In this document: in pieces, positions 22,273 through 43,202 of the stretch | How positions within the stretch are numbered: the stretch's first letter is position 1 | Layout: each line of letters begins with the position of its first letter | IMG/VR virus record: IMGVR_UViG_3300045988_166613 | Span: 1 to 64,000 of that record | From: a virus | Reading direction: 5' to 3' (one strand) | Length of the DNA stretch: 64,000 nt | Made by a program: the position numbers and the translations under genes | The notes under the pieces: generated by a model | Told to the model about the DNA's origin: nothing | Seen by the model: the letters and a program-made list of their open reading frames with translations, nothing else | The model's database searches: none

Positions 22273-22628
22273 CTAAAGGCTTTTTATCCTCTAGTTCTAG
22301 GAGTTTCCTCCATTACATCATGTTGATTCATGATTAGCTTAGCATATATTTTCACCCTCGTTTAACGTTAGGCTAATTTAAACAATTAGGATATATCTTT
22401 AATATATCGTGGAGAACACTCTTGGAAAGATTATATTCTGTTATATTACATAACAGTTTCACCTTCTATGCGTTACAGTACAGTAGAATTTTACTTCTAT
22501 TGATTATGTCTCCATAATCTAGTTTTAAAACCTGTTACCTCGGTATTATCATATCTTTGTAGACTTAGATTTCACCGATTTTGCTCTCTTATAATATTAA
22601 GTATTTTCTACTTAACACGACCTTATTT
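22273..22628 (-). mobile_element. ORF-less group I-type intron in the tape measure gene (junctions within about 4 nt)
   Basis: Stops in all frames and GC-richer than the flanks. Ends in G. Shares a 52-nt block (one mismatch) and three further blocks with the TerL intron. Confidence 0.6.
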
Positions 22629-24272
22629 ATATTGATCTTGTATAGCTGAGTTGGCTGTTGTGATTAAAGCAATACTTTGACTTAAATCATTATTGGCTGT
22701 TGAGAGGGCGGATCCCCCTCGCATGATGGCAGAATTTAATCCGCCTACAGAAACGCTAAAATGATTACTGACGTTATTTAATTTATCAATAATATCCATA
22801 CTATCTTTAGCTTGGATATTGTATGCTTTCATTGTTGCAATTAAACCTTTGTTCGCACTCTCAGAATCAATATCACCGACATTAGAAAAAATTATAGAGT
22901 TTTGAGCTAGTTCTTTTGATTCTTGATAGCTATATGACATCTGTGCGAATGCAGCAGTTGCTTCAATTACATTTTTAGTTTGATTTCCCAATGCTTTTGC
23001 CATATCATTTGCTTGATTTTCAAAAGCCTCATATTCTTGAGAGACTTCATTTGTAACTTTTTTCAAGTCTCTCATTGAGTTATCAACTTCTACGATTGTA
23101 CTAAAACCTTCTTTTAAAACTCCAATGGAAGCTCCGATAATTGATCCTCCAATGAAATAATCCTTCATACGTGCAAATATATTACTAAATTGACTTGTTG
23201 TTACAAGTTCACGACTTTGTACTTTTAAATCATTAACATTTTTTTGTATTCTATTTCTCTCTACAGAGCCTAATATTTCATTCTGAGCTATTAACTGTTT
23301 ATATAGATTAATTTGTCTTTCGAGTTCATTGCTAATTCTTACTTGTTCACTACTTTTACCACCACGATTATCAACTCTCACCTTTAAATTCTCCAGTGTT
23401 CTTAATTGTGATGTTAAGAATCTAGCACTTCTATTAATTTCTGCACTTCTACTAGATTCTTTCTTTATACAAGCGTCTAACTTAACTAATTCTTGAGACA
23501 GTAAATTCTTTTCCTCTTGAGTTAACCTATTACTCTTAGCTTTAGCTTCATTAATTTTATTTTGAATGTTTTGTACAGATTCTAAATGTCCTGTATTATT
23601 ATAATTACTATTTTTAAGATGTTGAGTTTCACTTAATGCTTTTATTTTATTAAGTCTATTCTCTAATTGAATTAAAAATTGTTCTTGGCTTAAATTAGCC
23701 GACTCTAACTTTGATTTATTATTAACTATCTTTTTATCTACTAAATCAAATACACGAACTAACTCGCCTTCAACCTCTTTTACAGTCCATCCATATTTTT
23801 CTACAGCTTGTCTACCTTCATCATATTGATAAGTTAAAGTAGTGTTCTTAACATTACCTTTCTTATCCATTACAGTAGATAACTTTGCCATCTTACCATT
23901 TAATAATTGTATCTCATTTTCAAGACTTTTACTTTTCTTTAGTATATCTTCAAAGTCTCCAGAAACGCTTTTTAAATCACTCTTAACTTCAAGATTTATC
24001 TTTTCACCTTTGAGTGCTGAGTTAATTTGTTTTTGAATATCTTGTAAAGCTCCATTATTACCTAAACTAATTTTACTTATGTTTAAATCAATATTTTTGC
24101 TAAGTTGATTTATTTGTTTTTGTATTTGATTTGTAGCTTTATCAATATCTTTTAAAGATACTTTTTCTAATTCAACCCCTAAATTTTTACTTAAACTTTT
24201 AATATCTTTTTCAAGTTGTTGTAATACTTTATCTTTATTTAATTTCCCACCGAATGATAGATTTAAAGACAT
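22629..24272 (-). CDS. tail tape measure protein, exon 1
   Basis: About 548 codons of coiled coil ending ...NSAIQDQY(K). GGAAAGGAGG RBS. Confidence 0.7.
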
Positions 24273-24301
24273 ATAATTCCTCCTTTCCCCGTTTTATTAC
24301 A

Positions 24302-24336
24302 TAAAAAAAGAACCTAGATATTAAAATCTAAGTTCT
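24302..24336 (-). terminator. strong rho-independent terminator immediately upstream of the TMP start
   Basis: Minus sense: GAACTTAGAT-TTTAAT-ATCTAGGTTC followed by TTTTTTT, ending about 30 nt before the TMP ATG. Confidence 0.65.
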
Positions 24337-24492
24337 TTATCATTATTTTCATATTTAATTATTATAATTTTGTTACTGCAACTTCTATCTCTTTCTCATT
24401 ATTACATAAAAAGCATTTGTCTTATCTTCCATTTAGCTACACTAAACTAGATATTAGTATGTTATGTTAATAAAATAATATTTTTTATATAA

Positions 24493-24526
24493 TAAAAAAG
24501 AACCTAGCTATACATTTACTAAGTTC
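24493..24526 (-). terminator. rho-independent terminator
   Basis: Minus sense: GAACTTAG...CTAGGTTC followed by TTTTTT. Confidence 0.6.
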
Positions 24527-24563
24527 GCAAATTCAATATATTATTTGATTATAAACGTTAAAC

Positions 24564-24585
24564 AGCCTAGCAATTAAGCTAGGCT
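24564..24585 (-). terminator. hairpin downstream of the MazF-like gene (weak T-tract)
   Basis: AGCCTAGC-AATTAA-GCTAGGCT. Confidence 0.35.
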
Positions 24586-24670
24586 ACTAAACTTGTCTTT
24601 GTTGATCCTAATTAAAGGACGATTGCTTTTACGCAACATTGTTTTTAACTTATGAGTTAATTATAATCTA

Positions 24671-25381
24671 TTAATTATTATTTGTCAACATTTTTATATA
24701 TAATTTTAAAAATAAATCTTCGACTTTTTTCATATTATCATCATCTAATACAAATTTTGATAATGGTTCTTTTGAATTTTTAGGCTCGTATATTCTCATC
24801 TTGCTTATGGTTCTAATTTGCGAAACTATAGCAACCGAACCTTTGTTTAAATTTTTTAATTCATTAAGTAAAAAAGCCTTATTTTTTTCTAAATTGGAAA
24901 ACTCTAAAGAAGTTGTATCAGTACATTCTAAATCACGATCAATTTTTTGAAGTTCTTTTTTGGTATAATCTATTTTATCTGTTAATAAAGCTTCACCTAA
25001 ATAAACTTCAAATCTTTTATTAATAGTTTCTTCATTTTCATAATCTTTTAATGAACGTATAGGAATTATTGTCACAACATTAGAATTTTTATTATTCTTG
25101 TTATCCATTACTAACCCATAATGTAATCCACCTTGTTCAGAACTAATATTATACCCTAAATGCACTTTTACTATATTTCCTTTTTTATACCTTATTAGTT
25201 CTTTAGGATTAAATTCTTGTTCTTTTGACAAAAAACGCTCATTCCAATCATTGAGCCAATAAGTTAATATTTTTTGTTGTTTGACACTTAAATTTTCAAC
25301 AATATTATATTCTAATTCATCTAATACTTGTCTCAAAGTTTGCCTTATTTCTTCATCAGTGTTTAAATGTTTTATTCTCAA
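24671..25381 (-). CDS. long MazF/PemK-like (SH3-fold toxin-like) protein
   Basis: KKGNIVKVHLGYNISSEQGGLHYGLVMDN...VVTIIPIRS and ...AIVSQIRTISKMRI match PemK/MazF signature segments. It has about 65 aa of N-terminal extension and a central insertion. TTG start after GGAGGA. Confidence 0.5.
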   Translation of the reverse strand: MRIKHLNTDEEIRQTLRQVLDELEYNIVENLSVKQQKILTYWLNDWNERFLSKEQEFNPKELIRYKKGNIVKVHLGYNISSEQGGLHYGLVMDNKNNKNSNVVTIIPIRSLKDYENEETINKRFEVYLGEALLTDKIDYTKKELQKIDRDLECTDTTSLEFSNLEKNKAFLLNELKNLNKGSVAIVSQIRTISKMRIYEPKNSKEPLSKFVLDDDNMKKVEDLFLKLYIKMLTNNN

Positions 25382-25413
25382 TAGTATATTCCTCCCATTT
25401 ATATTTTAAGAAA

Positions 25414-25442
25414 ATTATACCACTTTTGAATAAAGTTAACAA
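25414..25442 (-). promoter_or_regulatory. sigma-A-type promoter TTGTTA-N17-TATAAT with TGG extension
   Basis: Minus sense: TTGTTAACTTTATTCAAAAGTGGTATAAT. Nearly identical to the promoter at 30230-30258. Confidence 0.55.
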
Positions 25443-25592
25443 ACAATAAATATTTTTAATATTAATTTTATATTTTTAGTTATTAATGGTAAAATATAAC
25501 TGCTTATTTAATCAGTTTCTCTAATTTATATTGACTCCTTTTAATTATAGCCCTTGTCCCTTCCTTCTATTTTTTTTCATGATAACAACTCC

Positions 25593-26147
25593 TTAATCTA
25601 ACCATATTATTTCTTCGTTTTTATCATCATATATTTCTTCTAGCCCTTGCTTATCTTCACTCCAACTGTCATATCTAACAACGTTATATCCCTTGTATTT
25701 TCTTACTAACTTATATTTATTGGGAAATATTTCTTTACATGTCTCACATTCATTATCCATTAATTCACTCCAATAACCTGTATTATATTCTATAACGCCT
25801 TTATTAACCATTTCTAATACTAAATCATCATCAAAATAATCACTATCATACCATTCCATATTTTGAGTATATTCATAAATAGCTTTGGTTAAATTATGTT
25901 TCTTACAAGCATTTTTTAAGGCTTCATAAAACAACATTGTGCTTTCAATTTGACCATAAAAAGTCATATAATCCTCTTTACTATAATCTCTTTCTTCTTC
26001 GTTATACTTTTTTCTTCCTTCTCTATCTAATCTTATAATCTCGTCTCTGAAATCTGTTAGAAATTCCTTTGTTAATAATTTCTTCTTTCTATTAGGTAGT
26101 CCAAAATAATTTGAAATACCCCATCCTATATTACCACTTCTACCCAT
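25593..26147 (-). CDS. hypothetical protein
   Basis: ORF 25593-26165. ATG 26147 after GAGAGGAA is preferred. Tightly coupled to the upstream ORF. Confidence 0.55.
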   Translation of the reverse strand: MGRSGNIGWGISNYFGLPNRKKKLLTKEFLTDFRDEIIRLDREGRKKYNEEERDYSKEDYMTFYGQIESTMLFYEALKNACKKHNLTKAIYEYTQNMEWYDSDYFDDDLVLEMVNKGVIEYNTGYWSELMDNECETCKEIFPNKYKLVRKYKGYNVVRYDSWSEDKQGLEEIYDDKNEEIIWLD

Positions 26148-26161
26148 GATTATTATTCCTC

Positions 26162-26686
26162 TCAAATCTCTTTTAAAATCTTATCAACTCTTTGTTTAAT
26201 TTCATCTTTAGATGTTCCATCTTCAATAATTTTTCTAAACATCAATTCTATTACACTCCAATCTCGTTTGTCTGGAATGATTTCTTTTCCTTCTTTTTTA
26301 TCAGTTGCATTAAATAATTTGTTTAACGCAACTTTGCTTTCTAGCCTTTTAATTAGCATATCATAATCATCATATTTACTTTCATTTGATTGTTTACTTT
26401 GTCTTTCCACTATTTCAAAAAATCTTTTGGTAGCTTCTTCATCTAATTCAATAGGTCTAGTAAACACACTATCGTATTCATCATAATCTCTATTCCACTC
26501 GTTATCTTCTCGCCATTCATCATCTTTTGATATAACGGCATAGCCTTGCTCATTATATTTAGTGTTTTCTTTAGCTATTCTTATAGCTTTTTCAATTTTA
26601 GTATTCAATAATTCCTTGCATTTTTCTAAAGTTTCAACTGTTTCAATTTTATCTTTCTTCTTAGAAAACCCTTTACTATCAGTCAT
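26162..26686 (-). CDS. hypothetical acidic protein
   Basis: 174-aa ORF with AAGGAG RBS. Confidence 0.55.
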   Translation of the reverse strand: MTDSKGFSKKKDKIETVETLEKCKELLNTKIEKAIRIAKENTKYNEQGYAVISKDDEWREDNEWNRDYDEYDSVFTRPIELDEEATKRFFEIVERQSKQSNESKYDDYDMLIKRLESKVALNKLFNATDKKEGKEIIPDKRDWSVIELMFRKIIEDGTSKDEIKQRVDKILKEI

Positions 26687-26700
26687 GATTTATCAACTCC

Positions 26701-26859
26701 TTAACAAACAACTTCTACAGCTTGTCTTAATATATAATCTTTACTCTTATTAATCATTAGTATTCCATTGTAGAGATTTTCACACTCTAAAACTTCACCC
26801 TCACTATAAATTCTTGAATTGCTTCTATTGCGATATGTTTTTATTAATTTGACTCTCAT
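26701..26859 (-). CDS. small hypothetical protein (52 aa, below the ORF-track cutoff)
   Basis: ATG 26859 after GGGAGAG. My translation is MRVKLIKTYRNRSNSRIYSEGEVLECENLYNGILMINKSKDYILRQAVEVVC. The stop lies just before the RBS of the next gene. Confidence 0.4.
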   Translation of the reverse strand: MRVKLIKTYRNRSNSRIYSEGEVLECENLYNGILMINKSKDYILRQAVEVVC

Positions 26860-26883
26860 TTTTTTAATTCTCTCCCATTTTAT

Positions 26884-28890
26884 TTATTTATTTTCTAATT
26901 TTTTAAGTTTCTCATCAATATTATATTTAATACGTTCTTCCGGTGTTAAATCTTCTACATATTTAAAAGTAAAACCTTTATGGTGTTTTTGTTTACCATT
27001 GCAAACATTAGATATACAAGCTGGTTGCAAAAATACATTAAATATTCTCTTACTATCTCGGCTTAAAGCATTACATCCTTCAAAAATTTGTCCGTTCTCT
27101 ATTGATAGTATTTTTTTCATTTTTGCTTTGCTACTTTTATCCTTTCCTATTTTTTTACTAATAGAAATATCGTAGTTACACCAACCAAGCCTTGTTCCTT
27201 GTTTTAAATACTTCACAATTGTATTTCTATTAATTTTTGTAATATTTTTTATTTCAAGAACATCTTTGGTTCGTGTATTATACATATAACAAATTTCTCT
27301 CGCTATATTTTTTATAGAACCTTTGTGACATGTTGTCCAATTTACATTACTTAAATCAAATAATTCAGCTAATTCTGAGTTTAATATACTGTTCTGAATC
27401 CATTCTAAATTTGATTCTCTGCAATCAAGCTCTATATAATGCTTTATATCATTTTTTAATGCTACTTCTTTTTTATACTTATCGTTAGCTTGTTCTTGTT
27501 TTAAATCTCTTCCTCCCGTAGACGAAAAATTAGATATATCTGAATAATGTTGTTTACCATTAACTTCTATTATCATATTAAACTTAGGGATATAAAAATC
27601 GTATCTTTTTGGTTTTATCCAACTTGGGGAATATTCTTTTTTGTATTTAATATTTAATTGTAATAATAGATTTATTATAAATTTCTCTGGATATGATAAA
27701 CCATCAGAGCAATATTTACAAACAAATCCTCTTCTTGTTAGATCACATATTTTTCTTTTTCTAATTTTATTGCAATCTGGGCATATTGTTTCTACCCTCT
27801 TGTTACTTCCCTGAGAATGCTTATAAGCATCTTCTTTATTAACAAAATACTTAACTAAATATGGATGTGTTGTTGCTATATCGTTTATACCAACTCTAAC
27901 TCTTTTACCAAAACAAATTGGACAATTACCATTTCTTAATATAACAGATGGCGTAGTTTCAAATTCGCAAAAATTACAATTTGAACTATTATGTCTTAAT
28001 AGAATTTTTTTATCAGCTCCTTCATATTTACTAAGTACATTAAATTCATTCGGATATAAAGTTTGTAATTCTGTTTCAAAAGTTTCTTGTTTTTTTATAA
28101 ATTTATTTTTAAGGAATAATTTGTTACAATGAGGACAAGAAGCTTTCTTTAATATTGTTGAAACTCCTATATAAAAAGATTTGCCACACTTATTATGTCT
28201 AATTAGCACCTTAGTTTTAGCATTAATATATTCCCCTAAAATTTCATATTCATTACCATATTTCTCTTTAATTTCATTAACAAATTCTTCGTGTGTTTTT
28301 TGTTGGTTGCCTGCACATAATGGACACCCAGCACCATGTAAAAGTGAAGCAGGTTTAACACTCCATTCATAGCCACATTTATTATGCCTTAGTTTAATTT
28401 TAATATCACCTTTTATATATGGTTCTAATGGTGTATATTCTTCACTATATTTTTCTTTTAATTCTCTTAAAAATTGCTCATTATTTTTAGTTATAGAATT
28501 AATGGCTTTTATTTTGTTACAAGATGGACATCCCCTTTTTATAAGTTGATTATAATATATATAAAATTCATTATTACATTTTTTATGTTTTATTTTTATT
28601 TTGCTTTTGCAACTTTCATATTCACTCAAAACAATATATTCATTTCCATATTTATCATAAAGTTCTTTTTTAATGTCTTTAGTCGTCTTTTTAATGTTCC
28701 CTGCACACTTCGGACACCCATTGTTTAACAAGCTATATGGAATCACACTCCATTCATATCCACAATCATTATGTTTAACTAGTATTTTAGTTTTATTGTT
28801 AATATATTTTTCTAACGGTATATAAACTCCATCCCCATGTACTTCGTTTAATTGTTTAATAAATTCCTCATGTGTCTTCTTTTTACCCAT
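26884..28890 (-). CDS. Zn-ribbon-repeat nuclease with PD-(D/E)XK/Vsr-like core and C-terminal DNA-binding module (homing-endonuclease-like)
   Basis: At least five repeats of the type C.YEW...P..LL.G.GCP.C, then RYDFYIPKFNMIIEVNGKQHY, then IENGQIFEG..ALSRD... Start ATG 28890 (MGKKKTHEEF) matches the paralogue at 62980. Confidence 0.65.
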   Translation of the reverse strand: MGKKKTHEEFIKQLNEVHGDGVYIPLEKYINNKTKILVKHNDCGYEWSVIPYSLLNNGCPKCAGNIKKTTKDIKKELYDKYGNEYIVLSEYESCKSKIKIKHKKCNNEFYIYYNQLIKRGCPSCNKIKAINSITKNNEQFLRELKEKYSEEYTPLEPYIKGDIKIKLRHNKCGYEWSVKPASLLHGAGCPLCAGNQQKTHEEFVNEIKEKYGNEYEILGEYINAKTKVLIRHNKCGKSFYIGVSTILKKASCPHCNKLFLKNKFIKKQETFETELQTLYPNEFNVLSKYEGADKKILLRHNSSNCNFCEFETTPSVILRNGNCPICFGKRVRVGINDIATTHPYLVKYFVNKEDAYKHSQGSNKRVETICPDCNKIRKRKICDLTRRGFVCKYCSDGLSYPEKFIINLLLQLNIKYKKEYSPSWIKPKRYDFYIPKFNMIIEVNGKQHYSDISNFSSTGGRDLKQEQANDKYKKEVALKNDIKHYIELDCRESNLEWIQNSILNSELAELFDLSNVNWTTCHKGSIKNIAREICYMYNTRTKDVLEIKNITKINRNTIVKYLKQGTRLGWCNYDISISKKIGKDKSSKAKMKKILSIENGQIFEGCNALSRDSKRIFNVFLQPACISNVCNGKQKHHKGFTFKYVEDLTPEERIKYNIDEKLKKLENK

Positions 28891-29186
28891 TACATTCTCA
28901 CCATCCACTCATTTATAAGCTCATCCTCAAACTCATCTCTAACCTTATGTCTTATCATAATTCCATCATTAACTTTTGCTATTGTTATGTATTCTTTCTC
29001 CGCTTCAGCATCTTCCATAATCCCTGACAGTAAACATCTAAAATCATATCCATTCATATGTTGTTTCAGATAAACTGATTCATTATCATAAACAAATCTC
29101 TCTAGGTTAAGTTCTTTATTTTTAGTCTTACTGAAAAATTCCTCTGGATCTATAAATATTTCATCGTAAATTTTAAAATTAATCAT
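28890..29186 (-). CDS. hypothetical protein
   Basis: 98 aa with GAGGTGA RBS. Its stop overlaps the next start (TAATG). Confidence 0.55.
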   Translation of the reverse strand: MINFKIYDEIFIDPEEFFSKTKNKELNLERFVYDNESVYLKQHMNGYDFRCLLSGIMEDAEAEKEYITIAKVNDGIMIRHKVRDEFEDELINEWMVRM

Positions 29187-29348
29187 ATGTACTCACCTCA
29201 TATTATGTATTTTTTTTATTTTAATTTGTTTCTATGGTTTAATTATAAATCCGATTTTCGTATAAGTCAATACGTTTTTCGGATTAAAATTCAAAAAAAC
29301 GTATATTTTTTTATTAAAATAAGCTATAATACAATTGAGGTGATATTA

Positions 29349-29591
29349 ATGAGAATGAAATTGCATATGTTATTAGCTGAACATAGAATGACTCAAAAGG
29401 AATTATCTAAAGCAACAGGAATTCGTCAAGCTACAATAAGTGCTTATGCTAGTAACAACTATAAACATATAGTTAGAGAACATATTGATATTTTATGCGA
29501 CTATTTTAATTGCGATTTAACTGATTTAATAGAGTTAGATAGGTCAGAAAGAAAACCAGTATTTCATAATAAGAAAGAAATTAATAAATAA
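29349..29591 (+). CDS. XRE/Cro-CI-family HTH transcriptional regulator
   Basis: MTQKELSKATGIRQATISAY HTH segment. ATG 29349 after GAGGTGA. Paralogue of 62594-62806. Confidence 0.75.
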   Translation: MRMKLHMLLAEHRMTQKELSKATGIRQATISAYASNNYKHIVREHIDILCDYFNCDLTDLIELDRSERKPVFHNKKEINK

Positions 29592-29598
29592 TTACATT

Positions 29599-29625
29599 AA
29601 AAAAGAAGCTAGTAAATAGCTTCTT
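29599..29625. terminator. bidirectional terminator hairpin between convergent genes
   Basis: GAAGCTA-GTAAA-TAGCTTC, with an A-run on one side and TT on the other. Confidence 0.5.
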
Positions 29626-29638
29626 AATACATATATTA

Positions 29639-30205
29639 TTATTCAGTTACAACATTTTTTACTATATTTATGTTTTTATACTCTTTCATTAATCTATGAA
29701 GTTCTTGAACAATTTTTTCGTTTTCACCAATACCTCTTTCAAACACAATATTGACCACTTCTCCTTCATAAATGGCTCTTATATAGACATATTCTTTATT
29801 TAATTCTTTTTCTTTTCCTTTCATACCAAGACCGAAAACTCCAAAACAAGCTACTTTCATTAAAGAAGCTTTCTCTATTAATTGAGACTCTGTCTGAATT
29901 CTATAATCTTTTATATCTTTAAATAATATCTCTTTTTCTACTTTATAATCTATTTTAAATATAATCCTATCTTTAAATAACATTAATTTAACATCTTCTT
30001 TTATTCCATATTCTCTAAATCCAGAATATAGTTTAATCCAATAACTATTCACTAAGTTTAAACCTTGTTTTTTATAATTTTCTTTTTCCTCTTTTTTTCT
30101 TTTAGCAATATCTTTATCTGTACTTTTACTTATCAAAAAACACATAATCAATATGATACCAATAACTATAGCAAAATCTATTAAAGTTTCCATAATCAAT
30201 TCCAT
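29639..30205 (-). CDS. membrane-anchored protein (N-terminal TM helix), possible exclusion protein
   Basis: The N-terminus LIDFAIVIGIILIMCFLI is hydrophobic and is followed by a soluble domain. Confidence 0.5.
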   Translation of the reverse strand: MELIMETLIDFAIVIGIILIMCFLISKSTDKDIAKRKKEEKENYKKQGLNLVNSYWIKLYSGFREYGIKEDVKLMLFKDRIIFKIDYKVEKEILFKDIKDYRIQTESQLIEKASLMKVACFGVFGLGMKGKEKELNKEYVYIRAIYEGEVVNIVFERGIGENEKIVQELHRLMKEYKNINIVKNVVTE

Positions 30206-30229
30206 CTCCTTATCTTATTTATTAAGATA

Positions 30230-30258: not shown

Positions 30259-30269
30259 TTAATTCTAAA

Positions 30270-34828: not shown

Positions 34829-34847
34829 TAAAACATCTTCCTCCCTT

Positions 34848-36281: not shown

Positions 36282-36300
36282 TTAAAACAACTCCTTTCTT

Positions 36301-36852
36301 CTAAATGTTTAATTTTCTTTTTAAAAATTCAACTAATACTCTACTATCAATTGAACCATCATTTATTTTTCTAATTATTTCAATAGATAAATCTGCTCTC
36401 ATATCTTTTGATAAACTATCTAAAACAGTAGCAATCTCTTCTCTATCTAGTTTTAAAAATTTATCAACATCTTTTATTTTTTCTATTAGATCATACTTTT
36501 CTTTTAATCCTAAATACTTAATTACTTCTTTATCTTCTATTATTAATAATGGTTGCTCTAAATATATTTCGCTAACGCTATTCATATTAACTAATTCCTC
36601 AACCTTTAACATAATAGAGTCTCCAGCTTTTTCCCATTTAACAAATCTACCATTTAATAAATAAACCCCTATAGAACCACTTGAAATTGAAGTAACCTTA
36701 ACTTTCTTATTTAATATCTTTTCTTCTTCATCAGCTTGATTAGTAGGCATAGAATTCATAAGTTCACTTTTTATTTGATTTGTTAATAAAGCAATTAATT
36801 CTGGTGATATTGAATTTAAGTCTATTGTCTGTTTTTCATCTTTTTTTGGCAT
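36301..36852 (-). CDS. hypothetical structural-module protein
   Basis: 183-aa ORF with GGAGAG RBS. Confidence 0.5.
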   Translation of the reverse strand: MPKKDEKQTIDLNSISPELIALLTNQIKSELMNSMPTNQADEEEKILNKKVKVTSISSGSIGVYLLNGRFVKWEKAGDSIMLKVEELVNMNSVSEIYLEQPLLIIEDKEVIKYLGLKEKYDLIEKIKDVDKFLKLDREEIATVLDSLSKDMRADLSIEIIRKINDGSIDSRVLVEFLKRKLNI

Positions 36853-36922
36853 TAATTTTATCTCTCCATTTCTTTAATTTATTTAATAAAGAGGAGTATT
36901 TAACCCCTCTTTATATCTTTTA

Positions 36923-37951
36923 TTATTTTGATTGGTCAGTAATTTTTAATAAACCAACTCCTGTAGTAAATAATACAGCAGCTCCCATTTCCCAGATAGT
37001 TGCAAATTCCATTGTCATATCCATGTTAGATACTCCATTTGTACATTCTTGTACCATTACACTACCTCTGTTTATTAATTTTATTGGTTTGTTATTTTCT
37101 GATGCTAAAATATAAATAGTATCTGCATCAAAAGCAAAATCAGTAGTTCCTTCTTTGAATACATTTGGTAAAGCTACACAGTTGTATCCATACCATTTAC
37201 CTATGTAACCATTATCATTCATTTCATCTTTTTGCTTATCTGAAGCAGCTTGCATATCTTGTAATCTAGCTAATGCTGTTTTAGTACCAACTAAAGAAAT
37301 CTTTTCTCCTTTGTTAGCAGCTTCAACTTTTGCTACAGTATTTAATATTGTATTTTTGTTGTATGCCCCTGAGTATTTGAACATACCAGGTACACCATCT
37401 ATTGCTTCTGCAAATTTTGTTGATATAAAGTCTTGTTTGAACTTCTTGATAGAATCTGCAACTTTAGCAAGTAATTCAGCCCAAGTTATTTGTCCAGTTA
37501 AGAATCTCTTTAAGTAATCATACATTTTTATGTAATAAGCATCTGTATCAACTGATACTTTTCCACCTTTATCAATTCTTTGTCTATCTAAGTCCCAATG
37601 ATCTCCTGAAACCTTACCTACTGTAAAATAACAATCATTTTTTATATCGTATTCTACTTTTTCATCTTCTCCAACTGTTCTTTCTTCAACAAACATTCTT
37701 TGGAAATCAGATAATTCATTGTTCTTTTGTCTTAATAAATCATCTTCTAATACTTCTGTGAATACTTCTGCTAATTCTCTACTATGGAAATATATTTGTT
37801 TTTTAGAAGGTTTGTCTGTACCTAATAATTCAAACATTTTCTTTCTTATTGCATTATTTCTATCTTCACTAGAAAAGTTTTCTATTTTTACCCCTCTAGC
37901 TTCATCTATACCTAATTTAATTAATGTTGATTGTATTTCTGTAAAATTCAT
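36923..37951 (-). CDS. major capsid protein
   Basis: About 342 aa, downstream of the scaffold and decoration-like genes and followed by a hairpin. ATG 37951 after GGAGGAA is preferred over 37969. Confidence 0.6.
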   Translation of the reverse strand: MNFTEIQSTLIKLGIDEARGVKIENFSSEDRNNAIRKKMFELLGTDKPSKKQIYFHSRELAEVFTEVLEDDLLRQKNNELSDFQRMFVEERTVGEDEKVEYDIKNDCYFTVGKVSGDHWDLDRQRIDKGGKVSVDTDAYYIKMYDYLKRFLTGQITWAELLAKVADSIKKFKQDFISTKFAEAIDGVPGMFKYSGAYNKNTILNTVAKVEAANKGEKISLVGTKTALARLQDMQAASDKQKDEMNDNGYIGKWYGYNCVALPNVFKEGTTDFAFDADTIYILASENNKPIKLINRGSVMVQECTNGVSNMDMTMEFATIWEMGAAVLFTTGVGLLKITDQSK

Positions 37952-37984
37952 ATTGTTTATTTCCTCCATTCGTTGTTATTTTTC

Positions 37985-38551
37985 TTATAATGATTTAACG
38001 TAAACTTTAACCATTTGATATTGTACTTTTGATAATTTATTTAAATAGAATAAGTCTTTAAAAGCTTGTCTAACTTTAATAACTTCTAATACAATACCGT
38101 TATTTTCTGGTGGAAGTGTAGCTACAGCTTTATATTTCATATTTGCTTGTGGTATTAAGAATTTAGCTTTACTTAAATCTGAAACTCCACTATCTAAAGT
38201 TATTAAGTTATCTGAGATTTCAAAGTTATCTCCTACTGCTAAATCATATTCATCAGCTACTTTTCCTTGTGGTATATAAAAATCTTGTAATCCATTAATT
38301 TCTGCTCTACCAGGAACGTGTTGGAAAATTTCAGGTGAAGCAATTATACCTATTCTTCCTCCTTTTGTTGGATCTCCAACTTTTCTTATATCAGTTTCTC
38401 CTTTTGCTAAATCTCCAACGGCAACTATCATTCCGTTTTCTAATCCTGTTTCTGCTTCAGCTAATACTGATGCAGCATGTCCCACTCTTGTTGATCTTAC
38501 GTTTGAAGTATTACAAACTCCATATTTTACTTTGCTTATTGTTTGTACCAT
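37985..38551 (-). CDS. capsid-associated protein (decoration- or scaffold-like, by position)
   Basis: 188-aa ORF between the scaffold-like and capsid genes. Confidence 0.45.
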   Translation of the reverse strand: MVQTISKVKYGVCNTSNVRSTRVGHAASVLAEAETGLENGMIVAVGDLAKGETDIRKVGDPTKGGRIGIIASPEIFQHVPGRAEINGLQDFYIPQGKVADEYDLAVGDNFEISDNLITLDSGVSDLSKAKFLIPQANMKYKAVATLPPENNGIVLEVIKVRQAFKDLFYLNKLSKVQYQMVKVYVKSL

Positions 38552-38575
38552 TAAAATTTCCTCGCTTTCATATTA

Positions 38576-40015
38576 TTATTTAATACCTATACCATATCTT
38601 TTTTCGGCTTCTGATAATTCATTTTTACCTTCATCGCCTTCTAATCTTAGAGATACAGTATCGTCTTTTTCTTTAACATTTTTTTTCATAGAAAAATTCT
38701 TCTTGCCTATTAAAACATAGAATTCTTTTTCTAAATCTTCTAAACTAAATTCACTTGCTTTATTTTTTATTTCAGCAAATCCTTCTATTGTTTCTAAGTC
38801 TTTGAATTTCTCAAATAATTCTGTTTCTTTTCTATTTCTTTCTTTTTTTTCAAATTCAACTTTAAATTCTTCTAAAGCCTTCTTATCATTTTCAACTTTT
38901 TCAAATTCAGCTTTTAAAGTTTTATATTCTTCTGTTTCGGTCGCTACAAAAGACTTTTTCACTTCTTCTATTTCTTTTTGATAATGTTCAGTTTCTTTAT
39001 TTATGATAGATGAGAAATATTCCTTAGATTCAGAAGTTGATTCTTCTTTTCCTTTAAATTTTCTCCAATCTCCTCTAACATATCTTGTAGCCTCATCAAA
39101 TTTTAAAGTGGCTTCATCACCTTCTAAAGAATAAGGTATTCCATAGAATTTACCCCAATCTTGACTACTTTCAGCTATTATTAGATTTTCTTCTGGTATA
39201 ACATCTTGAAAATAATACATTGGATAGTTTTCTACTTCACCCCATGAATATGTGTATTCATAAGTGTTTTCTTTTAATTTTTCTCTAAGTCTATCTTTTA
39301 AATCTTCTACACTCATAGAAAAATCTTTTTTAACAGTTTTTGCTCCCATTTCATTCCCTCCTTTTTTATTAATTGCTTCTAGTATTTCACTAAATTTCAT
39401 AGTAAAATCTTTTGTTTGTTCTGCTTTAGTAAATAATGATATTTCAGCGTTACTTCCCATTGCTGGAGGATATTCAGCCCCTAAAACAGTGATACCTAAG
39501 TATTTAAAGTCTTTTACATGATAAAACCCATCAACTTCATCTTCATAACCATCTAAGACTTCAATTTCCATAGATATCTTTTTTCTTCCATCATTATTTT
39601 TTAATATTTCTACTGCTTCACTGCAATAAACATTATATAGATAACCATTAACACAAACCCAATTATATCCATCTATCTCTTCAATAGAATAATCACAACT
39701 TTCAGGTACAGCCCCTATTGGTTGTTCTATGTAAATAGGTTTAAATTCTATAGAACCATCTGCATTAACAATCTTATATTCAACTTCATGTCCTTTAAAA
39801 TCTTCTTTTTCATTATCTTCATTTATTTCATAAGCTGCTACGATAGGTTTATTTTTTATACTATTTTCAGCTTTTGTAAATGAATCTAATTCAAAATATA
39901 AACCATTGGGATTTTCTCTATCATGACAAACTTGAATTCTTGATGGGGCTAAATCATCTTGACTTGTATCAATAGTAAATTTACTAATTGGTATTGAAAA
40001 TATCTTATTTTCCAA
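38576..40015 (-). CDS. scaffolding or prohead-maturation protein
   Basis: 479 aa. The C-terminal half is a highly charged E/K-rich coiled coil. TTG start after GGAGGTGA. Lies after the portal gene. Confidence 0.5.
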   Translation of the reverse strand: MENKIFSIPISKFTIDTSQDDLAPSRIQVCHDRENPNGLYFELDSFTKAENSIKNKPIVAAYEINEDNEKEDFKGHEVEYKIVNADGSIEFKPIYIEQPIGAVPESCDYSIEEIDGYNWVCVNGYLYNVYCSEAVEILKNNDGRKKISMEIEVLDGYEDEVDGFYHVKDFKYLGITVLGAEYPPAMGSNAEISLFTKAEQTKDFTMKFSEILEAINKKGGNEMGAKTVKKDFSMSVEDLKDRLREKLKENTYEYTYSWGEVENYPMYYFQDVIPEENLIIAESSQDWGKFYGIPYSLEGDEATLKFDEATRYVRGDWRKFKGKEESTSESKEYFSSIINKETEHYQKEIEEVKKSFVATETEEYKTLKAEFEKVENDKKALEEFKVEFEKKERNRKETELFEKFKDLETIEGFAEIKNKASEFSLEDLEKEFYVLIGKKNFSMKKNVKEKDDTVSLRLEGDEGKNELSEAEKRYGIGIK

Positions 40016-40064
40016 TTTCTCACCTCCTTTTAAAAGGATAATTTTATTTAATTATTTAATTTAT

Positions 40065-40238
40065 TTAAAAATGCAATCTATTTGATTGGAATACATTTTT
40101 ATTTGACATCTTTAAATTTTTAGGATTTGTAAATAAATACACCTTTTCACCTTTTATAGTTTCAGTTCCTACAAACTTAAATCCTTGTTTAATTAACATT
40201 TCTTTAGTTTTTTCATCTGTACATTTTATAAAATTCAT
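40065..40238 (-). CDS. small hypothetical protein
   Basis: ATG 40238 after AGTAGGTG. Confidence 0.4.
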   Translation of the reverse strand: MNFIKCTDEKTKEMLIKQGFKFVGTETIKGEKVYLFTNPKNLKMSNKNVFQSNRLHF

Positions 40239-40247
40239 CTTAAACAC

Positions 40248-41768
40248 CTACTTTTTATTATTATCATCTCTAACTCTAGTTGTTTCTCCAGCATCTGTTA
40301 AATCTCCAGTATCTTTCCTTGGTCTCCCCTTATCTTCATTACCATTTTGAGTATGTGAAGAATTAAGAGGTTTCCATGTTTCATGAGTTTTAAGTATCTC
40401 ATTTTCTAAGAAATTTAATCCCATTATAGTTGCTGGTTGTAAACCTAAAGAAGCTGTATATAAAGTTTTACATGGTGCTGACATTTGAGAACCTTGTAAA
40501 TATCTATCTTGAACTTCTTTTTCATTAAAAGTAGTTATATCTAATAATTGTATGTATATCTTACCGCCATATAATTTATTAAATTTTCTATTTAACCATG
40601 TTTCAAATTGTCTATATAAAGAAAAACATTTACCTAAGTTATATTTTGTAGAGTATTCTAATGCACTTCCTGTAGCATCTACCCCAAATAATGCGGGTGC
40701 AAAAGCACTTGAACTAAATAATAATTTCTCAGCTTTTAAAATTTCATCTTCTTTAGCGACTCCCTGTGTTTGGAATTTTACTTCTTCCGCATCCATCGGA
40801 GTTGTTACTGCTGCAACACTATCTGGTAATTGTTCATTTAATAATTCCATATATGTTTGAATCATATTTAAAGATAAAAGAAAATCATCTGGTTTCTCAC
40901 CTTTCTTATTTAAAGGTATCTTAAATACGAGCATTTTTAATAAATCTGCTTTAACCTTATCTTTATTTAATCCTTTATAATCTTTTAAGTTATATAAATC
41001 ATCAAACAAACTTACATATGGAGGTAAACAATAATCCAATTCATCATTAAACCATTTTACACATATACTTTTATAAGGATCTAATTCTTGCCATTGATAA
41101 TCTGCATTATATCCGCTATTTTTATATATTACATATTTATTAGTAAATTCTTTTGGATAAGATGTTTTTAATAAATCTTCTCTACCCATAAAATAACTAA
41201 AATCAAATGCAAAATTTAAACAACTATCAAACGAAGTTATCTTGCAATATTTAGGATTTAAAGCTTTGATAAAATAATTCTTTGTACTTTCTACTTCATA
41301 TCCGTAAAAAATATCATATTTACTCATTTGTAAAGTTGCTTTTAAAAATTCTTCTTCTATATTCATTTTTAATAGTTTATTACTTGCTTTTATGTATGCT
41401 TTTTTAACATCATCAACCTTAAATTCTTTACCATCTTTATTAGGTATTGGTATTATTACTGACCTAAATAAACACATTCTAGGTATAGCTTCTACTAAAT
41501 TTTGATATTGAGGGCTTGTACCCATTAAATTTTGAGATATATCTCTTAATTCTTGTTGATAACTTTTTGGATTGTTAATCATTTGATTTATTTGTTGAGG
41601 TGTATATTCTCCAGCAAGATTTAAATTATACATCACTTCATTTTGTATCGTTTGTCCAAAAGGATATAATTTTCTAGTAAAATTTAATATTTCCCTAGCT
41701 TTATCTTCCGTAGATTTATTATCAAAAGCATCTTTTTTATAATCTTTTTTCTTACCTATTTTTCTCAC
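40248..41768 (-). CDS. portal protein
   Basis: 506 aa, directly downstream of TerL (GTGA overlap). Size and position are typical. The start codon is uncertain. Confidence 0.65.
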   Translation of the reverse strand: MRKIGKKKDYKKDAFDNKSTEDKAREILNFTRKLYPFGQTIQNEVMYNLNLAGEYTPQQINQMINNPKSYQQELRDISQNLMGTSPQYQNLVEAIPRMCLFRSVIIPIPNKDGKEFKVDDVKKAYIKASNKLLKMNIEEEFLKATLQMSKYDIFYGYEVESTKNYFIKALNPKYCKITSFDSCLNFAFDFSYFMGREDLLKTSYPKEFTNKYVIYKNSGYNADYQWQELDPYKSICVKWFNDELDYCLPPYVSLFDDLYNLKDYKGLNKDKVKADLLKMLVFKIPLNKKGEKPDDFLLSLNMIQTYMELLNEQLPDSVAAVTTPMDAEEVKFQTQGVAKEDEILKAEKLLFSSSAFAPALFGVDATGSALEYSTKYNLGKCFSLYRQFETWLNRKFNKLYGGKIYIQLLDITTFNEKEVQDRYLQGSQMSAPCKTLYTASLGLQPATIMGLNFLENEILKTHETWKPLNSSHTQNGNEDKGRPRKDTGDLTDAGETTRVRDDNNKK

Positions 41769-42952
41769 CTCCCAAACTTTTGTGTTTTAAAGAAGAATAA
41801 ATCTTCCGCTTTTATCTCTGACTCTTCTTGTTTTGGTTTATCTTCGTATGTTTTTATATAATATAATAAATATGCTACCGCTGAATATCTATCTTTATCC
41901 ATTGTCTTAGTGTTTCTTTCTACGGTTAATTTTCCCCCATTCAATGTTTTTAATGAAAGATTCGCAACTTCTTCTATGAAAAAGTCTGTTTGTATAGAAG
42001 GTAAAAAGCTATTCATCATGTAATCTTGATTACTTAAATCAACTTTTGCTTGGTCTACCTTATCTAATAATTGCAACTTACCACTTTCAACCATATTCAT
42101 AAAATTAACTATAACATCAGTATTAATACCCTGAGCATTTACCCCAAATACACATTTTCTTGCATCTGCCTCATCGCTTTCGTGATCTGTATTTATAGTA
42201 TCGTAAGCTTCTAATTCTTCACCTGTAATTGGATCTATATGAACTTTCATTAATTCATCTAATAAGCCTATACCTAAACCATTAATATCTATAGCAATCA
42301 TAATCGCATTAAACGCTTTTCTTAATCTCTTAACAGCAATAGCTTGTCCGGTAAAGTTCATTCCATTTGGAAGGTTAATCATATTAACTAACTTAACATT
42401 TCTAACCCTTTCATTTTTATCTCTTTTTACTTTTCCTATAACTATAGAAGTTTGGTTATTGCTTGTTTTAGCTGAACGAGCTACATCGACAGCCATATAA
42501 TACTCTGATTTTCCATCACCTTTTAATTCTGCTTTTGGTAAAACTCTTAGTTCCAATAGTTTATTTACATCTACTATACAGTTTTCATTTGAACCTACCC
42601 ATCTACTTTCATAGTTGGTTGCAAAGAAAATAGGTGATAATCTTTCTTTTTTTGCTAATATTTGAGTTTTTGTCTCGCCTCTACCATATTCACAAGCTAA
42701 TTGCCAATCTGAACCTATAACAATTTTCCCTTTTAAGTCTGCCATATCATCTAGCATTCTTAAACTTCTTTCATATTCAGTATTTTTAAAATATGCTGTT
42801 GTCAAGAAATGCATTTGACCATTCATTTCTTCAGGATTAATTAAAGAACTACCTATAGTTCTTCTTGGTATATTAGGGATTGGTTCAAGTGCATCTTGGA
42901 ATAGTTCATCATTAAGTAGAGCTGCTTCTTCAATATTTACAATTTTGTTACC
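41765..42952 (-). CDS. terL: terminase large subunit, exon 2 (Walker B + nuclease domain)
   Basis: Begins GNKIVNIEEAALLNDE (Walker B-like hhhhEE), in frame right after the intron-terminal G. Confidence 0.7.
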   Translation of the reverse strand, partial: GNKIVNIEEAALLNDELFQDALEPIPNIPRRTIGSSLINPEEMNGQMHFLTTAYFKNTEYERSLRMLDDMADLKGKIVIGSDWQLACEYGRGETKTQILAKKERLSPIFFATNYESRWVGSNENCIVDVNKLLELRVLPKAELKGDGKSEYYMAVDVARSAKTSNNQTSIVIGKVKRDKNERVRNVKLVNMINLPNGMNFTGQAIAVKRLRKAFNAIMIAIDINGLGIGLLDELMKVHIDPITGEELEAYDTINTDHESDEADARKCVFGVNAQGINTDVIVNFMNMVESGKLQLLDKVDQAKVDLSNQDYMMNSFLPSIQTDFFIEEVANLSLKTLNGGKLTVERNTKTMDKDRYSAVAYLLYYIKTYEDKPKQEESEIKAEDLFFFKTQKFGR

Positions 42953-43202
42953 CATAAGGCTTTTTATCCTTATGTTCTTATAGTTTCCTATAAGTTCAGC
43001 GTACATTTTCATCTTCAACATTACTTGTTAAGATGGTGAACACTCTTGGAAGGATTATATTTATTCACCTTCTACGCGTTACGGTGGATTATAGCCTTTC
43101 GCAATCTATAATCTTACCTCGGTATTATCATATCTTTGCAGACTTAGATTTCACCGATTTTGCTCACTTATTATTCAATATATTTCTACATTGAACGGCT
43201 AA
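42953..43202 (-). mobile_element. ORF-less group I-type intron in the terminase large subunit gene (junctions within about 4 nt)
   Basis: Splits the TerL ATPase between Walker A and Walker B. GC-richer than the flanks. Ends in G. Paralogous to the TMP intron. Confidence 0.6.

What the first reader, a model, noticed from the sequence alone, without database searches (positions are those of the whole stretch)
22273..43202. The TMP and TerL introns are paralogues, pointing to one intron family spreading within a genome
The two inserts share four blocks, written here in minus sense.
- Block 1: GAGCAAAATCGGTGAAATCTAAGTCT[G/A]CAAAGATATGATAATACCGAGGTAA. This is 52 nt with one mismatch, at plus-strand coordinates 22535-22586 and 43114-43165.
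- Block 2: GTAACGC[G/A]TAGAAGGTGAA.
- Block 3: AATATAATC[C/T]TTCCAAGAGTGTTC.
- Block 4: the 3' end AGGATAAAAAGCCTT-NN-G.

The variable segments between the blocks differ in length; the TMP copy is about 100 nt longer. That is the pattern expected for a conserved ribozyme core with variable peripheral loops. Neither copy encodes an endonuclease, so mobility would have to be supplied in trans. The four free-standing or intronic nucleases in the window are candidates. Reverse splicing is an alternative.
Basis: seen in the sequence. Interest (0 to 1): 0.75.

Follow-up and report, generated by a model that had tools for sequence, protein, structure and literature searches.

The report
Two mosaic group I phage introns
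Two small self-splicing (group I) introns of one widespread phage intron family interrupt the terminase-like and tape-measure genes of an SPbeta-like phage; this arrangement is already known, and the only unusual detail is that just one 52-base stretch of their cores is nearly identical.

Summary
All four shared blocks exist. Block 1 is 51/52 identical, at 22535-22586 and 43114-43165 on the minus strand.

Both inserts are endonuclease-free group I introns:
- The TerL(YonF-like) intron is 43207..42940, 268 nt.
- The TMP intron is 22634..22261, 374 nt.

Intron-less alleles in related phages fix both boundaries to the base.

A hand-drawn P1-P9.1 fold, including the P3/P7 pseudoknot and P7.1, was tested on 20 family members. 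It pairs in 89.6% of cells against 36-42% for slid controls, and 58 of 74 pairs show changes on both sides.

The family is very common. It occurs in more than 100 IMG/VR contigs and 86 phage records, often several copies per genome and in TMP and TerL genes. Related introns in the TMP and terminase genes of one Bacillus cereus prophage were described in 2008 (PMC2504315).

"One intron spreading within this genome" is only partly supported. The two copies are mutual best matches only in P3-P4-P5 (96%; next best 77%). Elsewhere, introns from other phages are closer. The likeliest history is two separately acquired family members plus a local sequence exchange.

Verdict: an ordinary new member of a known kind.

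The parts
43208..43775 (-). TerL (SPbeta YonF-like packaging ATPase) exon 1, ending ...AGA CAU AGG U. The reading frame runs 14 codons into the intron, to TGA at 43164-43166.
   Evidence: phrog_15503 spans both ORFs. tblastn finds Perkons 'terminase', Sundance 'YonF/DNA-packaging protein' and SPbeta-group phages. A Walker A-like GYGKT is seen in the spliced protein. The portal gene lies directly downstream (phrog_2739).
42940..43207 (-). TerL group I intron, 268 nt, no ORF. Elements: IGS 43197-43201; P2 43174-43195; P3 43162-43167 / 43036-43041; P4-P5-P4' 43119-43157; P6 43083-43118; P7 43073-43077 / 42999-43003; P7.1 43049-43072; P8 43010-43035; P9 42977-42994; P9.1 42953-42974; tail and terminal G 42940-42952.
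   Evidence: Rfam RF00028 scores 42.7 bits, E=1.5e-9, below the gathering score of 50. All 74 pairs of the hand-drawn structure are canonical, which holds by construction because the structure was drawn on this sequence. Boundaries come from the intron-less allele L128 and intron-less proteins.
41765..42939 (-). TerL exon 2, starting UAAAUAUUGAAGAA (..L N I E E A A L L..)
   Evidence: In one search, 80 of the 80 best relatives are contiguous across the junction.
22635..24272 (-). Tape measure protein (TMP) exon 1, ending ...AUA CAA GAU. The frame stops 3 codons into the intron, at TAA 22623-22625.
   Evidence: PF10145. phrog_4211 matches profile positions 459-764 here and 800-1732 in exon 2.
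22261..22634 (-). TMP group I intron, 374 nt, no ORF. Elements: IGS 22619-22622; P2 22597-22615; P3 22583-22588 / 22412-22417; P4-P5-P4' 22540-22578; branched P6 22477-22539; P7 22467-22471 / 22342-22346; P7.1+P7.2 22425-22466; branched P8 22353-22411; P9 with an extra hairpin 22297-22337; P9.1 22273-22294; tail and terminal G 22261-22272.
   Evidence: nhmmer E=1.5e-67. 63 of 74 family pairs are in register; the exceptions lie in P1 and in the enlarged P6a, P8 and P9. The related phage contig L208 (about 88% nt identity) lacks exactly this stretch. The Sundance TMP is colinear across the junction.
18295..22260 (-). TMP exon 2, starting CCU GCU AAA GUU GGU (P A K V G N A L K T..)
43114..43165 (-). 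Block 1 in the TerL intron: last 4 nt of P3 5', J3/4, P4, P5/P5a, P4' and the start of P6. It is 51/52 identical to the TMP copy.
22535..22586 (-). Block 1 in the TMP intron. The single difference is in the P5a loop (ACAA vs GCAA).
26884..28908 (-). Free-standing 674-aa endonuclease-like gene. It has repeated treble-clef zinc fingers, a central nuclease-like region and a NUMOD-like C-terminus. It is the only candidate found for a trans-acting homing nuclease, and any link to the introns is inferred, not shown.
   Evidence: phrog_559 'HNH endonuclease' 3.4e-88 and phrog_9084 'homing endonuclease'. PF14311 and a PF22083 I-HmuI NUMOD-like hit that scores below Pfam's cut-off (23.7 vs 27 bits). 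Its N-terminal repeats are 39% identical to an HNH ORF sitting in the P5 loop of family intron L092. It lies in a roughly 5.9-kb stretch absent from L208.

Best explanation
Both inserts are ORF-less group I self-splicing introns of subgroup IA type, with P7.1 (plus P7.2 in the TMP copy) between P7 and P3'. They belong to one large family that is common in phages of low-G+C Gram-positive bacteria and in gut phages.

How they work (inferred from the conserved fold):
- Each is transcribed within its host gene.
- Its own internal guide sequence pairs with the last exon bases. In TerL this is GGU|UA with UAGCC; in TMP it is GAU|C with GGUC. In both the splice-site U pairs with a G.
- The RNA folds into the P3-P9 core and is removed after the terminal G. 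This restores ...RRHR|LNIEE... in the YonF-like terminase and ...AIQD|PAKVG... in the tape measure protein.

History (inferred):
- The two copies are not a recent duplicate of each other. They are two distinct members of the family, probably acquired separately by recombination with other phages.
- They later exchanged, or inherited through recombination, one short module. That module is P3(3' part)-P4-P5-P4', about 52 nt, and it is now 98% identical.
- Lacking an endonuclease gene, they cannot home on their own. They would spread passively through recombination in the flanking exons, possibly helped by breaks made by a nuclease supplied in trans.
For: Boundaries:
- Intron-less relatives align without a gap across both junctions.
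- Contig L208 (about 88% nt identity) breaks exactly at 22634/22260, and its site GCTATACAAGAT|CCTGCTAAAG equals the ligated exons.
- Contig L128 breaks at 43205-43207/42939.
- 80 of the 80 best TerL relatives are uninterrupted at the site.

Fold:
- Rfam Intron_gpI aligns end to end to the TerL copy (42.7 bits, E=1.5e-9).
- On 20 family members, the P1-P9.1 structure with the P3/P7 pseudoknot gives 89.6% paired cells, against 68.4% for shuffles and 36-42% for slid controls.
- 58 of 74 pairs change on both sides. P3, P7 and P7.1 are 100% paired.
- The TerL copy keeps 61/61 and the TMP copy 59/61 of the positions that are at least 90% conserved in the family.

Family size:
- More than 100 homologous introns in IMG/VR loci.
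- 86 phage records for the TerL intron and 32 for the TMP intron.

Mosaic pattern:
- The two are mutual best hits only in block 1 (0.96; next best 0.77).
- Elsewhere identity is P6 0.42, P8 0.17, P9 0.47, and the partner ranks 4-70 of 75.
- In family-variable columns, 39/41 are identical inside the block and 71/137 outside (binomial P about 1e-9).
- The block's 39-mer has no other exact match in viral or genome contigs.
- Other co-resident pairs (L040, L002) also share only some segments.

No ORF longer than 53 aa lies in either intron.
Against: - Splicing was not observed. There are no RNA data.
- Neither copy reaches Rfam's gathering score (42.7 and 11.7 bits against 50).
- The TMP P1 is only 4 bp, and no convincing P10 was found for it.
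- The family sample was seeded with an exact 15-mer from P9.1, so it is biased. Closer relatives of either intron may be missing.
- The direction and place of the block-1 exchange (within this genome or in an ancestor) cannot be told.
- The homologous flanks for such an exchange are short, 12-13 nt of conserved core on each side.
- The rest of the genome was not available.
Confidence: 0.6

Rival explanations
1. Intragenomic spread. One intron copied itself from the TMP gene to the terminase gene, or the reverse, within this phage lineage, by reverse splicing or nuclease-assisted transposition. The copies then diverged, mostly in the peripheral loops.
For: - Both belong to the same family, lie in the same genome and have the same orientation.
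- Block 1 is 51/52 identical and unique to these two copies.
- Each P1 fits its own site, as expected after adaptation.
- PMC2504315 interprets a comparable case (term-IVS1 vs TMP-IVS3) as adaptation of related introns to different sites.
Against: - The peripheral elements are not merely diverged. They match other phages' introns. TerL P8 is 100% and its P9.1/tail 97% identical to Clostridioides phage intron L001.
- TMP's branched P8 and its P9 insert hairpin are a variant shared with L073, L054, L037 and L010.
- Identity in variable columns is 52% outside the block and 95% inside it. That is not the gradient a single duplication would leave.
- The guide sequences (UAGCC and GGUC) do not fit each other's sites, so there is no trace of reverse splicing.
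Confidence: 0.2
2. There was no exchange inside this genome. Both introns were acquired from a pool of introns in which modules (P4-P5, P8, P9) are shuffled by recombination during co-infections. Both happen to carry the same P4-P5 module from a common donor lineage that is not sampled.
For: - Segmental sharing is seen in other contigs (L040, L002).
- The family is huge and poorly sampled.
- Related P5 shapes (CUAAGUC...GAUAUGRUAAU) occur in L062, L073 and L054.
Against: No other sequence with this module was found in viral contigs or genome contigs. The single metagenome hit is this same phage's TerL locus, 100% identical over 848 nt. Two independent arrivals of a module seen nowhere else is less economical than one local exchange.
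Confidence: 0.18
3. The shared blocks are a plain dispersed repeat with no RNA function.
For: None beyond the repetition itself.
Against: - There are only two copies, both inside genes.
- Each is delimited to the base by intron-less alleles, and removing it restores the reading frame.
- Covariation is strong in 13 helices.
Confidence: 0.01

Closest known systems
Group I introns of Bacillus cereus-group prophages: TMP-IVS1/2/3 and term-IVS1 (Tourasse & Kolsto 2008, PMC2504315)
   Same: - ORF-less IA-type group I introns sit in the tape measure and large terminase genes of one prophage (B. cereus E33L carries TMP-IVS1, TMP-IVS3a and term-IVS1).
- The terminase intron is homologous to TMP introns (65-77% identity) but has a different P1.
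- TMP-IVS1 and TMP-IVS2 are more alike in their core (P3-P7, 90-92%) than in P1, P2, P8 and P9.
   Different: - The host here is an SPbeta-like phage with a YonF-type terminase.
- The insertion sites differ.
- The highly similar part here is much shorter (P3-P5 only), and the rest of each intron is closer to introns of other phages.
- I did not compare the sequences directly with those B. cereus introns.
Introns in the TMP gene of large Clostridioides phages (ES-S-0173-01, pCD1602_4, phiCD211/phiCDIF1296T, LIBA6276)
   Same: - Same family. 72-86% identity to the TerL intron over the parts aligned (83-86% by megablast over the 3' part, 72-78% over longer blastn stretches), with P8, P9.1 and tail nearly the same.
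- pCD1602_4 carries two copies 250 nt apart.
   Different: They sit about 85 codons downstream of the window's TMP site (window TMP residue ~630 against junction residue 546; GIAEAA|GK..) and have a short P5 without the P5a hairpin.
Multiple related group I introns in one phage genome: T4 td/nrdB/sunY, Staphylococcus phage Twort orf142, SPbeta bnrdE/bnrdF (from my own knowledge; SPbeta nrdE introns are also listed in PMC2504315)
   Same: Several IA-type introns per phage genome, placed in conserved motifs of essential genes, with or without endonuclease ORFs.
   Different: Different host genes. Those are experimentally shown to splice; these are not.
Collaborative homing: an ORF-less intron mobilised by a free-standing homing endonuclease (reviewed in PMC3984707)
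   Same: Here there are ORF-less introns plus one free-standing endonuclease-like gene in the same genome. That gene's DNA-binding repeats resemble those of an endonuclease encoded inside a family intron.
   Different: The endonuclease gene is 4.2 kb from the TMP site and 14 kb from the TerL site, not adjacent to either. No target-site evidence exists. This is a possibility only.

Membership tests
Group I intron | The 5' splice site follows a U that forms a U-G wobble with the internal guide sequence in P1 | tested here: met
   TerL: exon GGU|UA pairs with UAGCC (U43208-G). TMP: exon GAU|C pairs with GGUC (U22635-G). Both were read, with splice sites fixed. The TMP P1 is short (4 bp).
Group I intron | The intron ends with a G (omega G), and excision restores the host reading frame exactly | tested here: met
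   The terminal G is at 42940 and at 22261. The ligated exons match the intron-less alleles L128 and L208 and the intron-less proteins, without a gap.
Group I intron | Conserved core: P3-P8 and P4-P6 domains with a P3/P7 pseudoknot, supported by covariation | tested here: met
   P3 is 100% paired with 5 of 6 pairs changed on both sides. P7 is 100% paired, with AU in 11 and GC in 9 sequences at one pair. P4/P5 are 95.6% paired and P6 98.3%. Overall pairing is 89.6% against 36-42% for slid controls. The alignment is a plain MAFFT alignment, not fitted to the structure; the structure was drawn on the TerL copy.
Group I intron | Score at or above the Rfam RF00028 gathering threshold (50 bits) | tested here: not met
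   TerL scores 42.7 bits (E=1.5e-9, full-length alignment). TMP scores 11.7 bits (partial). Neither is reported in the whole-window scans. This is a curated cut-off, not a biological criterion. The TMP copy's large insertions in P6, P8 and P9 probably explain its low score.
Group I intron | Guanosine-dependent self-splicing | not testable with these tools
   This needs in vitro transcription and splicing, or RNA data.
Subgroup IA (IA1/IA2) phage-type introns | Extra helices P7.1/P7.2 between P7 and P3' (criterion as summarised in PMC3984707) | tested here: met
   P7.1 (GAAGG/CCUUC) is 100% paired, with all 5 pairs covarying. The TMP copy adds a P7.2 hairpin, CUGUUAU-GUAA-UAUAACAG. Assignment to IA1 or IA2 was not resolved.
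Mobile (homing) group I intron | An intron-encoded homing endonuclease ORF | tested here: not met
   The longest ORFs inside the introns are 31 aa (TMP) and 53 aa (TerL, opposite strand). Some relatives do carry one, for example an HNH ORF in the P5 loop of L092.
Large terminase (host gene of the 43-kb intron) | Recognisable terminase ATPase and nuclease domains | tested here: inconclusive
   There is no Pfam, NCBIfam or PDB sequence hit. phrog_5909 'terminase large subunit' scores only E=3.7e-4. Homologues are annotated 'terminase', 'DNA-packaging protein' and 'YonF'. A Walker A-like GYGKT is present and the gene lies next to the portal gene. No structure prediction was run.

The most novel reading that the evidence does not exclude
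The 52-nt identity is the footprint of gene conversion between two otherwise different ribozymes living in the same phage genome. On this reading, co-resident group I introns homogenise or swap single structural modules (here P4-P5, the place where relatives carry their endonuclease gene). The family then evolves as a set of exchangeable modules rather than as whole elements. A stronger version is that the shared P5/P5a hairpin is kept identical because both introns depend on one shared trans factor.
Probability: 0.4. Interest if true: 0.4.

Novelty: new member of a known kind. Interest (0 to 1): 0.25.

Why it matters
- It corrects the annotation of two essential structural genes, terminase and tape measure protein. 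Gene callers would otherwise report each as two truncated ORFs. It also gives exact splice junctions.
- It documents a very common phage intron family that Rfam's group I model misses at its gathering threshold, so this family is probably under-annotated in phage genomes.
- The mosaic pattern adds a small but clear example that phage group I introns evolve by exchange of modules. This has been noted before for Bacillus cereus prophage introns.
- It does not open a new mechanism.

Tried and rejected
- **Rfam.** At gathering threshold, and with E-values over the whole window, Rfam finds only a tRNA-like hit. The intron appears only when a short stretch is searched.
- **Megablast.** The TMP region found nothing in phages.
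- **Splice sites.** My first choice of 3' splice sites, after GCCUUAUGG and GCCUUUAG(G), was rejected. Intron-less homologues lack the extra 4 residues (CNKI/V in TerL, DNIL or QYNIL in TMP) that those sites would add.
- **Exon co-conversion.** The apparent similarity of the '3' exon' between TerL and the Clostridioides TMP (G[G/A]TAACAAAATTG) is simply intron sequence. The idea of exon co-conversion was dropped.
- **TerL identity.** Sequence searches against PDB and NCBIfam gave nothing.
- **39-mer scans.** Exact scans for the block-1 39-mer gave 0 hits in genome and viral contigs. One metagenome contig (L238) is 100% identical to this phage's TerL locus over 848 nt, then joins unrelated higher-G+C DNA. 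It is probably a chimeric assembly and is uninformative.
- **Genome contigs.** A search for TMP relatives found none.
- **More nucleases.** Pfam and PHROGs searches over about 60 ORFs found only 26884-28908.
- **My own errors.** The peptide queries (first residue; first 9 residues, 'TGESFWVKP'; first 30 residues) carried letters that are not encoded in the window. Only the genuine parts (from KDTVEITF... and from SALSTANNDL...) are used here. The weaker hits (L209-L215) are disregarded.

Full report
**1. Observation**

The four blocks are present.
- The first 26 nt of block 1 occur exactly twice in the window, at 22561-22586 and 43140-43165 on the minus strand, with none expected by chance.
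- Reading both regions gives 51/52 identity over 22535-22586 and 43114-43165.
- The 15-mer of block 4 occurs twice.
- nhmmer finds no third copy in the window, with a 4-sequence profile or a 20-sequence profile with filters off.

**2. Host genes and exact boundaries**

*TMP.* The ORFs 22623-24272 and 18295-22224 are two halves of one tape measure protein. Exon 1 hits PF10145. phrog_4211 positions 459-764 match the first ORF and 800-1732 the second.

*TerL.* The ORFs 43164-43775 and 41765-43021 are two halves of one protein, since phrog_15503 continues from one into the other.
- Its homologues are annotated 'terminase' (Psychrobacillus phage Perkons) and 'YonF / DNA-packaging protein' (Brevibacillus phage Sundance). 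The homologues in SPbeta-group Bacillus phages (BUCT082, SPR, SPbetaL2/L3) are annotated 'hypothetical protein'.
- It lies directly upstream of the portal gene (phrog_2739).
- Direct sequence evidence that it is a terminase is weak. phrog_5909 scores E=3.7e-4, and there is no Pfam, NCBIfam or PDB hit.
- I therefore call it a YonF-like probable large terminase.
- The window as a whole looks like an SPbeta-like phage. It also encodes a YonO-like RNA polymerase (PF05183).

*Junctions.* Intron-less homologues decide the splice junctions.
- Terminase: ...KGLRRHR|LNIEEAALL...
- TMP: ...ANSAIQD|PAKVGNALKT...
- The introns are therefore 43207..42940 (268 nt) and 22634..22261 (374 nt).

*DNA of related phages confirms this to the base.*
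- IMG/VR contig L208 is about 88% identical to the TMP gene. Its alignment breaks at window 22634/22260, and its site GCTATACAAGAT|CCTGCTAAAG equals the ligated exons.
- L128 (TerL 82-84% identical at protein level) breaks at 43205-43207/42939. The 1-3 nt ambiguity arises because intron and downstream exon begin with the same bases.
- All 80 best TerL relatives in IMG/VR are uninterrupted at this site.

What follows is a tail, G(A/G)UAAC/U..., that is conserved in the whole family.

*Disclosure.* Some of my peptide queries began with residues that are not in the window. Only the genuine parts are used, and the junction results do not depend on the spurious letters.

**3. What the inserts are**

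Rfam's group I model aligns end to end with the TerL insert (42.7 bits, E=1.5e-9). This is below the gathering score of 50. It matches only a fragment of the TMP insert.

I drew a structure on the TerL copy:

| Helix | Pairing |
|---|---|
| P1 | GGU\|UA with UAGCC |
| P2 | (hairpin, 43174-43195) |
| P3 | GUGAGC / GUUCAC |
| P4 | UCGGUG / UACCGA |
| P5 / P5a | (within 43119-43157) |
| P6 / P6a | (within 43083-43118) |
| P7 | GCGUA / UACGC |
| P7.1 | GAAGG / CCUUC |
| P8 | (hairpin, 43010-43035) |
| P9 | 7 bp with a GAAA loop |
| P9.1 | CAUAAGG / CCUUAUG |

I tested it on a plain MAFFT alignment of 20 family members (A3). Results:
- 89.6% of cells pair, against 68.4% for column shuffles and 36-42% for partners slid by 1-3 columns.
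- 58 of 74 pairs show changes on both sides.
- P3, P7 and P7.1 are 100% paired.

Between the two window copies alone there are compensatory differences:
- P3: U-A vs A-U.
- P7: G-C vs A-U.
- P9.1: three pairs.

P7.1, and P7.2 in the TMP copy, lie between P7 and P3'. That is the mark of subgroup IA. I did not resolve IA1 versus IA2.

Other features:
- The TMP copy is longer because of a branched P6, a P7.2 hairpin, a branched P8 and an extra hairpin in P9. These segments fold into stable hairpins on their own.
- The TerL copy keeps 61/61 and the TMP copy 59/61 of the family positions that are at least 90% conserved.
- Both host reading frames stop soon after entering the intron, after 14 and 3 codons.
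- Neither intron contains an ORF above 53 aa.
- Splicing itself is inferred, not shown.

**4. The family**

- A scan of IMG/VR for the P9.1 15-mer returned 120 loci (the limit), and most of these contain a homologous intron by nhmmer.
- blastn finds the TerL intron's relatives in 86 phage records: Staphylococcus, Bacillus, Clostridium, Clostridioides and crAss-like phages. Several have HNH or LAGLIDADG genes under the match.
- The TMP intron finds 32 records.
- Several contigs carry two or three copies. Clostridioides phage pCD1602_4 has two copies 250 nt apart in its TMP gene.
- Family introns occur in other TerL homologues at or near the same position (L077, L036) and at two other positions (L035/L052; L200-L206).
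- In TMP genes they occur at sites other than the window's.

**5. Are the two copies direct paralogues?**

Only in part. Segment by segment on 76 family members:

| Segment | TerL-TMP identity | Rank of partner (of 75), TerL / TMP view |
|---|---|---|
| P3-P4-P5 block | 0.96 (next best 0.77) | 1 / 1 |
| P2 | 0.63 | 4 / 5 |
| P6 | 0.42 | 39 / 27 |
| P7-P7.1-P3' | 0.65 | 28 / 18 |
| P8 | 0.17 | 70 / 34 |
| P9 | 0.47 | 67 / 9 |
| P9.1 + tail | 0.69 | 49 / 60 |

- TerL's P8 is 100% identical, and its P9.1/tail 97% identical, to the TMP intron of Clostridioides phage ES-S-0173-01.
- TMP's enlarged P8 and P9 belong to a variant shared with L073, L054, L037 and L010.
- In family-variable columns, 39/41 positions are identical inside the block and 71/137 outside it (binomial P about 1e-9).
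- The block's 39-mer has no other exact match in viral or genome contigs. The one metagenome hit is this same phage.
- Divergence after a duplication would not make the peripheral helices identical to those of other phages' introns.
- I therefore favour two separately acquired family members that share one exchanged module.
- Other co-resident pairs show similar partial sharing. The L040 pair is identical in P3-P7 but differs in P1, P2 and P8.

**6. Mobility**

- Neither copy has an endonuclease gene.
- I could not reproduce 'four nucleases'. Screening about 60 ORFs found one DNA endonuclease-like gene, 26884-28908.
- That gene matches phrog_559 at 3.4e-88. It has zinc-finger repeats, and a weak I-HmuI NUMOD-like match at its C-terminus that falls below Pfam's cut-off (23.7 vs 27 bits).
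- It lies in a roughly 5.9-kb stretch absent from L208.
- Its N-terminal repeats are 39% identical to those of an HNH protein encoded in the P5 loop of family intron L092. L087 is the ORF-less form of that intron.
- This makes it a reasonable candidate for a trans-acting nuclease. Nothing links it to either insertion site.
- The two guide sequences fit only their own sites, so there is no trace of reverse splicing from one site to the other.

**7. Comparison with what is known**

Tourasse and Kolsto (2008, PMC2504315) described the following:
- IA1/IA2 group I introns at three sites in the TMP gene and in the large terminase gene of Bacillus cereus-group prophages.
- One prophage (E33L) carrying TMP-IVS1, TMP-IVS3a and term-IVS1.
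- Cores more conserved than the peripheral domains in TMP-IVS1/IVS2.

The present case is the same phenomenon in a different phage group and at different sites. Collaborative homing of ORF-less introns by free-standing nucleases is also established (PMC3984707).

**8. Verdict**

There is no good evidence for copying within this genome. This is a new member of a known kind, of modest interest.

Noticed in passing
window 52842-55616 (-): A 924-aa protein hits PF05183 (eukaryotic-type RdRP fold). This is the signature of a YonO-like single-subunit RNA polymerase of SPbeta-like phages.
   Followed up: no
window 24300-30200: A stretch of about 5.9 kb between the gene at ~30.2 kb and the TMP start is absent from the related contig L208. 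It holds the endonuclease-like gene 26884-28908, a MazE/PemK-like ORF (24671-25381), a plus-strand HTH regulator (29187-29591) and small unknown ORFs.
   Followed up: partly
window 888-4423 (-): Three consecutive ORFs: a tyrosine recombinase (888-1901), a 380-aa ORF with no Pfam hit (1902-3044) and a second tyrosine recombinase (3134-4423). The layout recalls a recombinase trio.
   Followed up: no
window 17408-18207 (-): An overlapping ORF pair lies directly downstream of the TMP gene. The second ORF has a HEPN domain. It may be a HEPN/nucleotidyltransferase toxin-antitoxin pair.
   Followed up: no
window 49729-49795 (-): Rfam calls a tRNA here (53.6 bits), but ARAGORN finds no tRNA in the window. 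The anticodon arm aligns oddly in the Rfam alignment.
   Followed up: partly
L002 2337-2617 and 2866-3132 (Clostridioides phage pCD1602_4): Two family introns lie 250 nt apart in one TMP gene, and the record has no annotation. L033 holds three copies, and L011, L037, L040, L072 and L080 two each.
   Followed up: partly
L092 2316-3569 vs L087 137-426: The same intron at the same TMP-like site exists with and without a 309-aa HNH ORF inserted in the P5 loop. This is a clean ORF-plus / ORF-less pair.
   Followed up: partly
Family-wide; window 42940-42952 and 22261-22272: A conserved 3' tail, G(A/G)UAACA, lies between P9.1 and the terminal G in nearly all of the 76 family members. I did not assign it a pairing partner.
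   Followed up: no
L238 (OLCT01010709.1) 849-1177: This metagenome contig is 100% identical to window 42654-43501, then continues into unrelated, higher-G+C DNA. It is probably a chimeric assembly.
   Followed up: yes
window 55686-57778 (-): An N6/N4 DNA methylase (PF01555) lies next to a PAPS-reductase-domain protein (PF01507).
   Followed up: no
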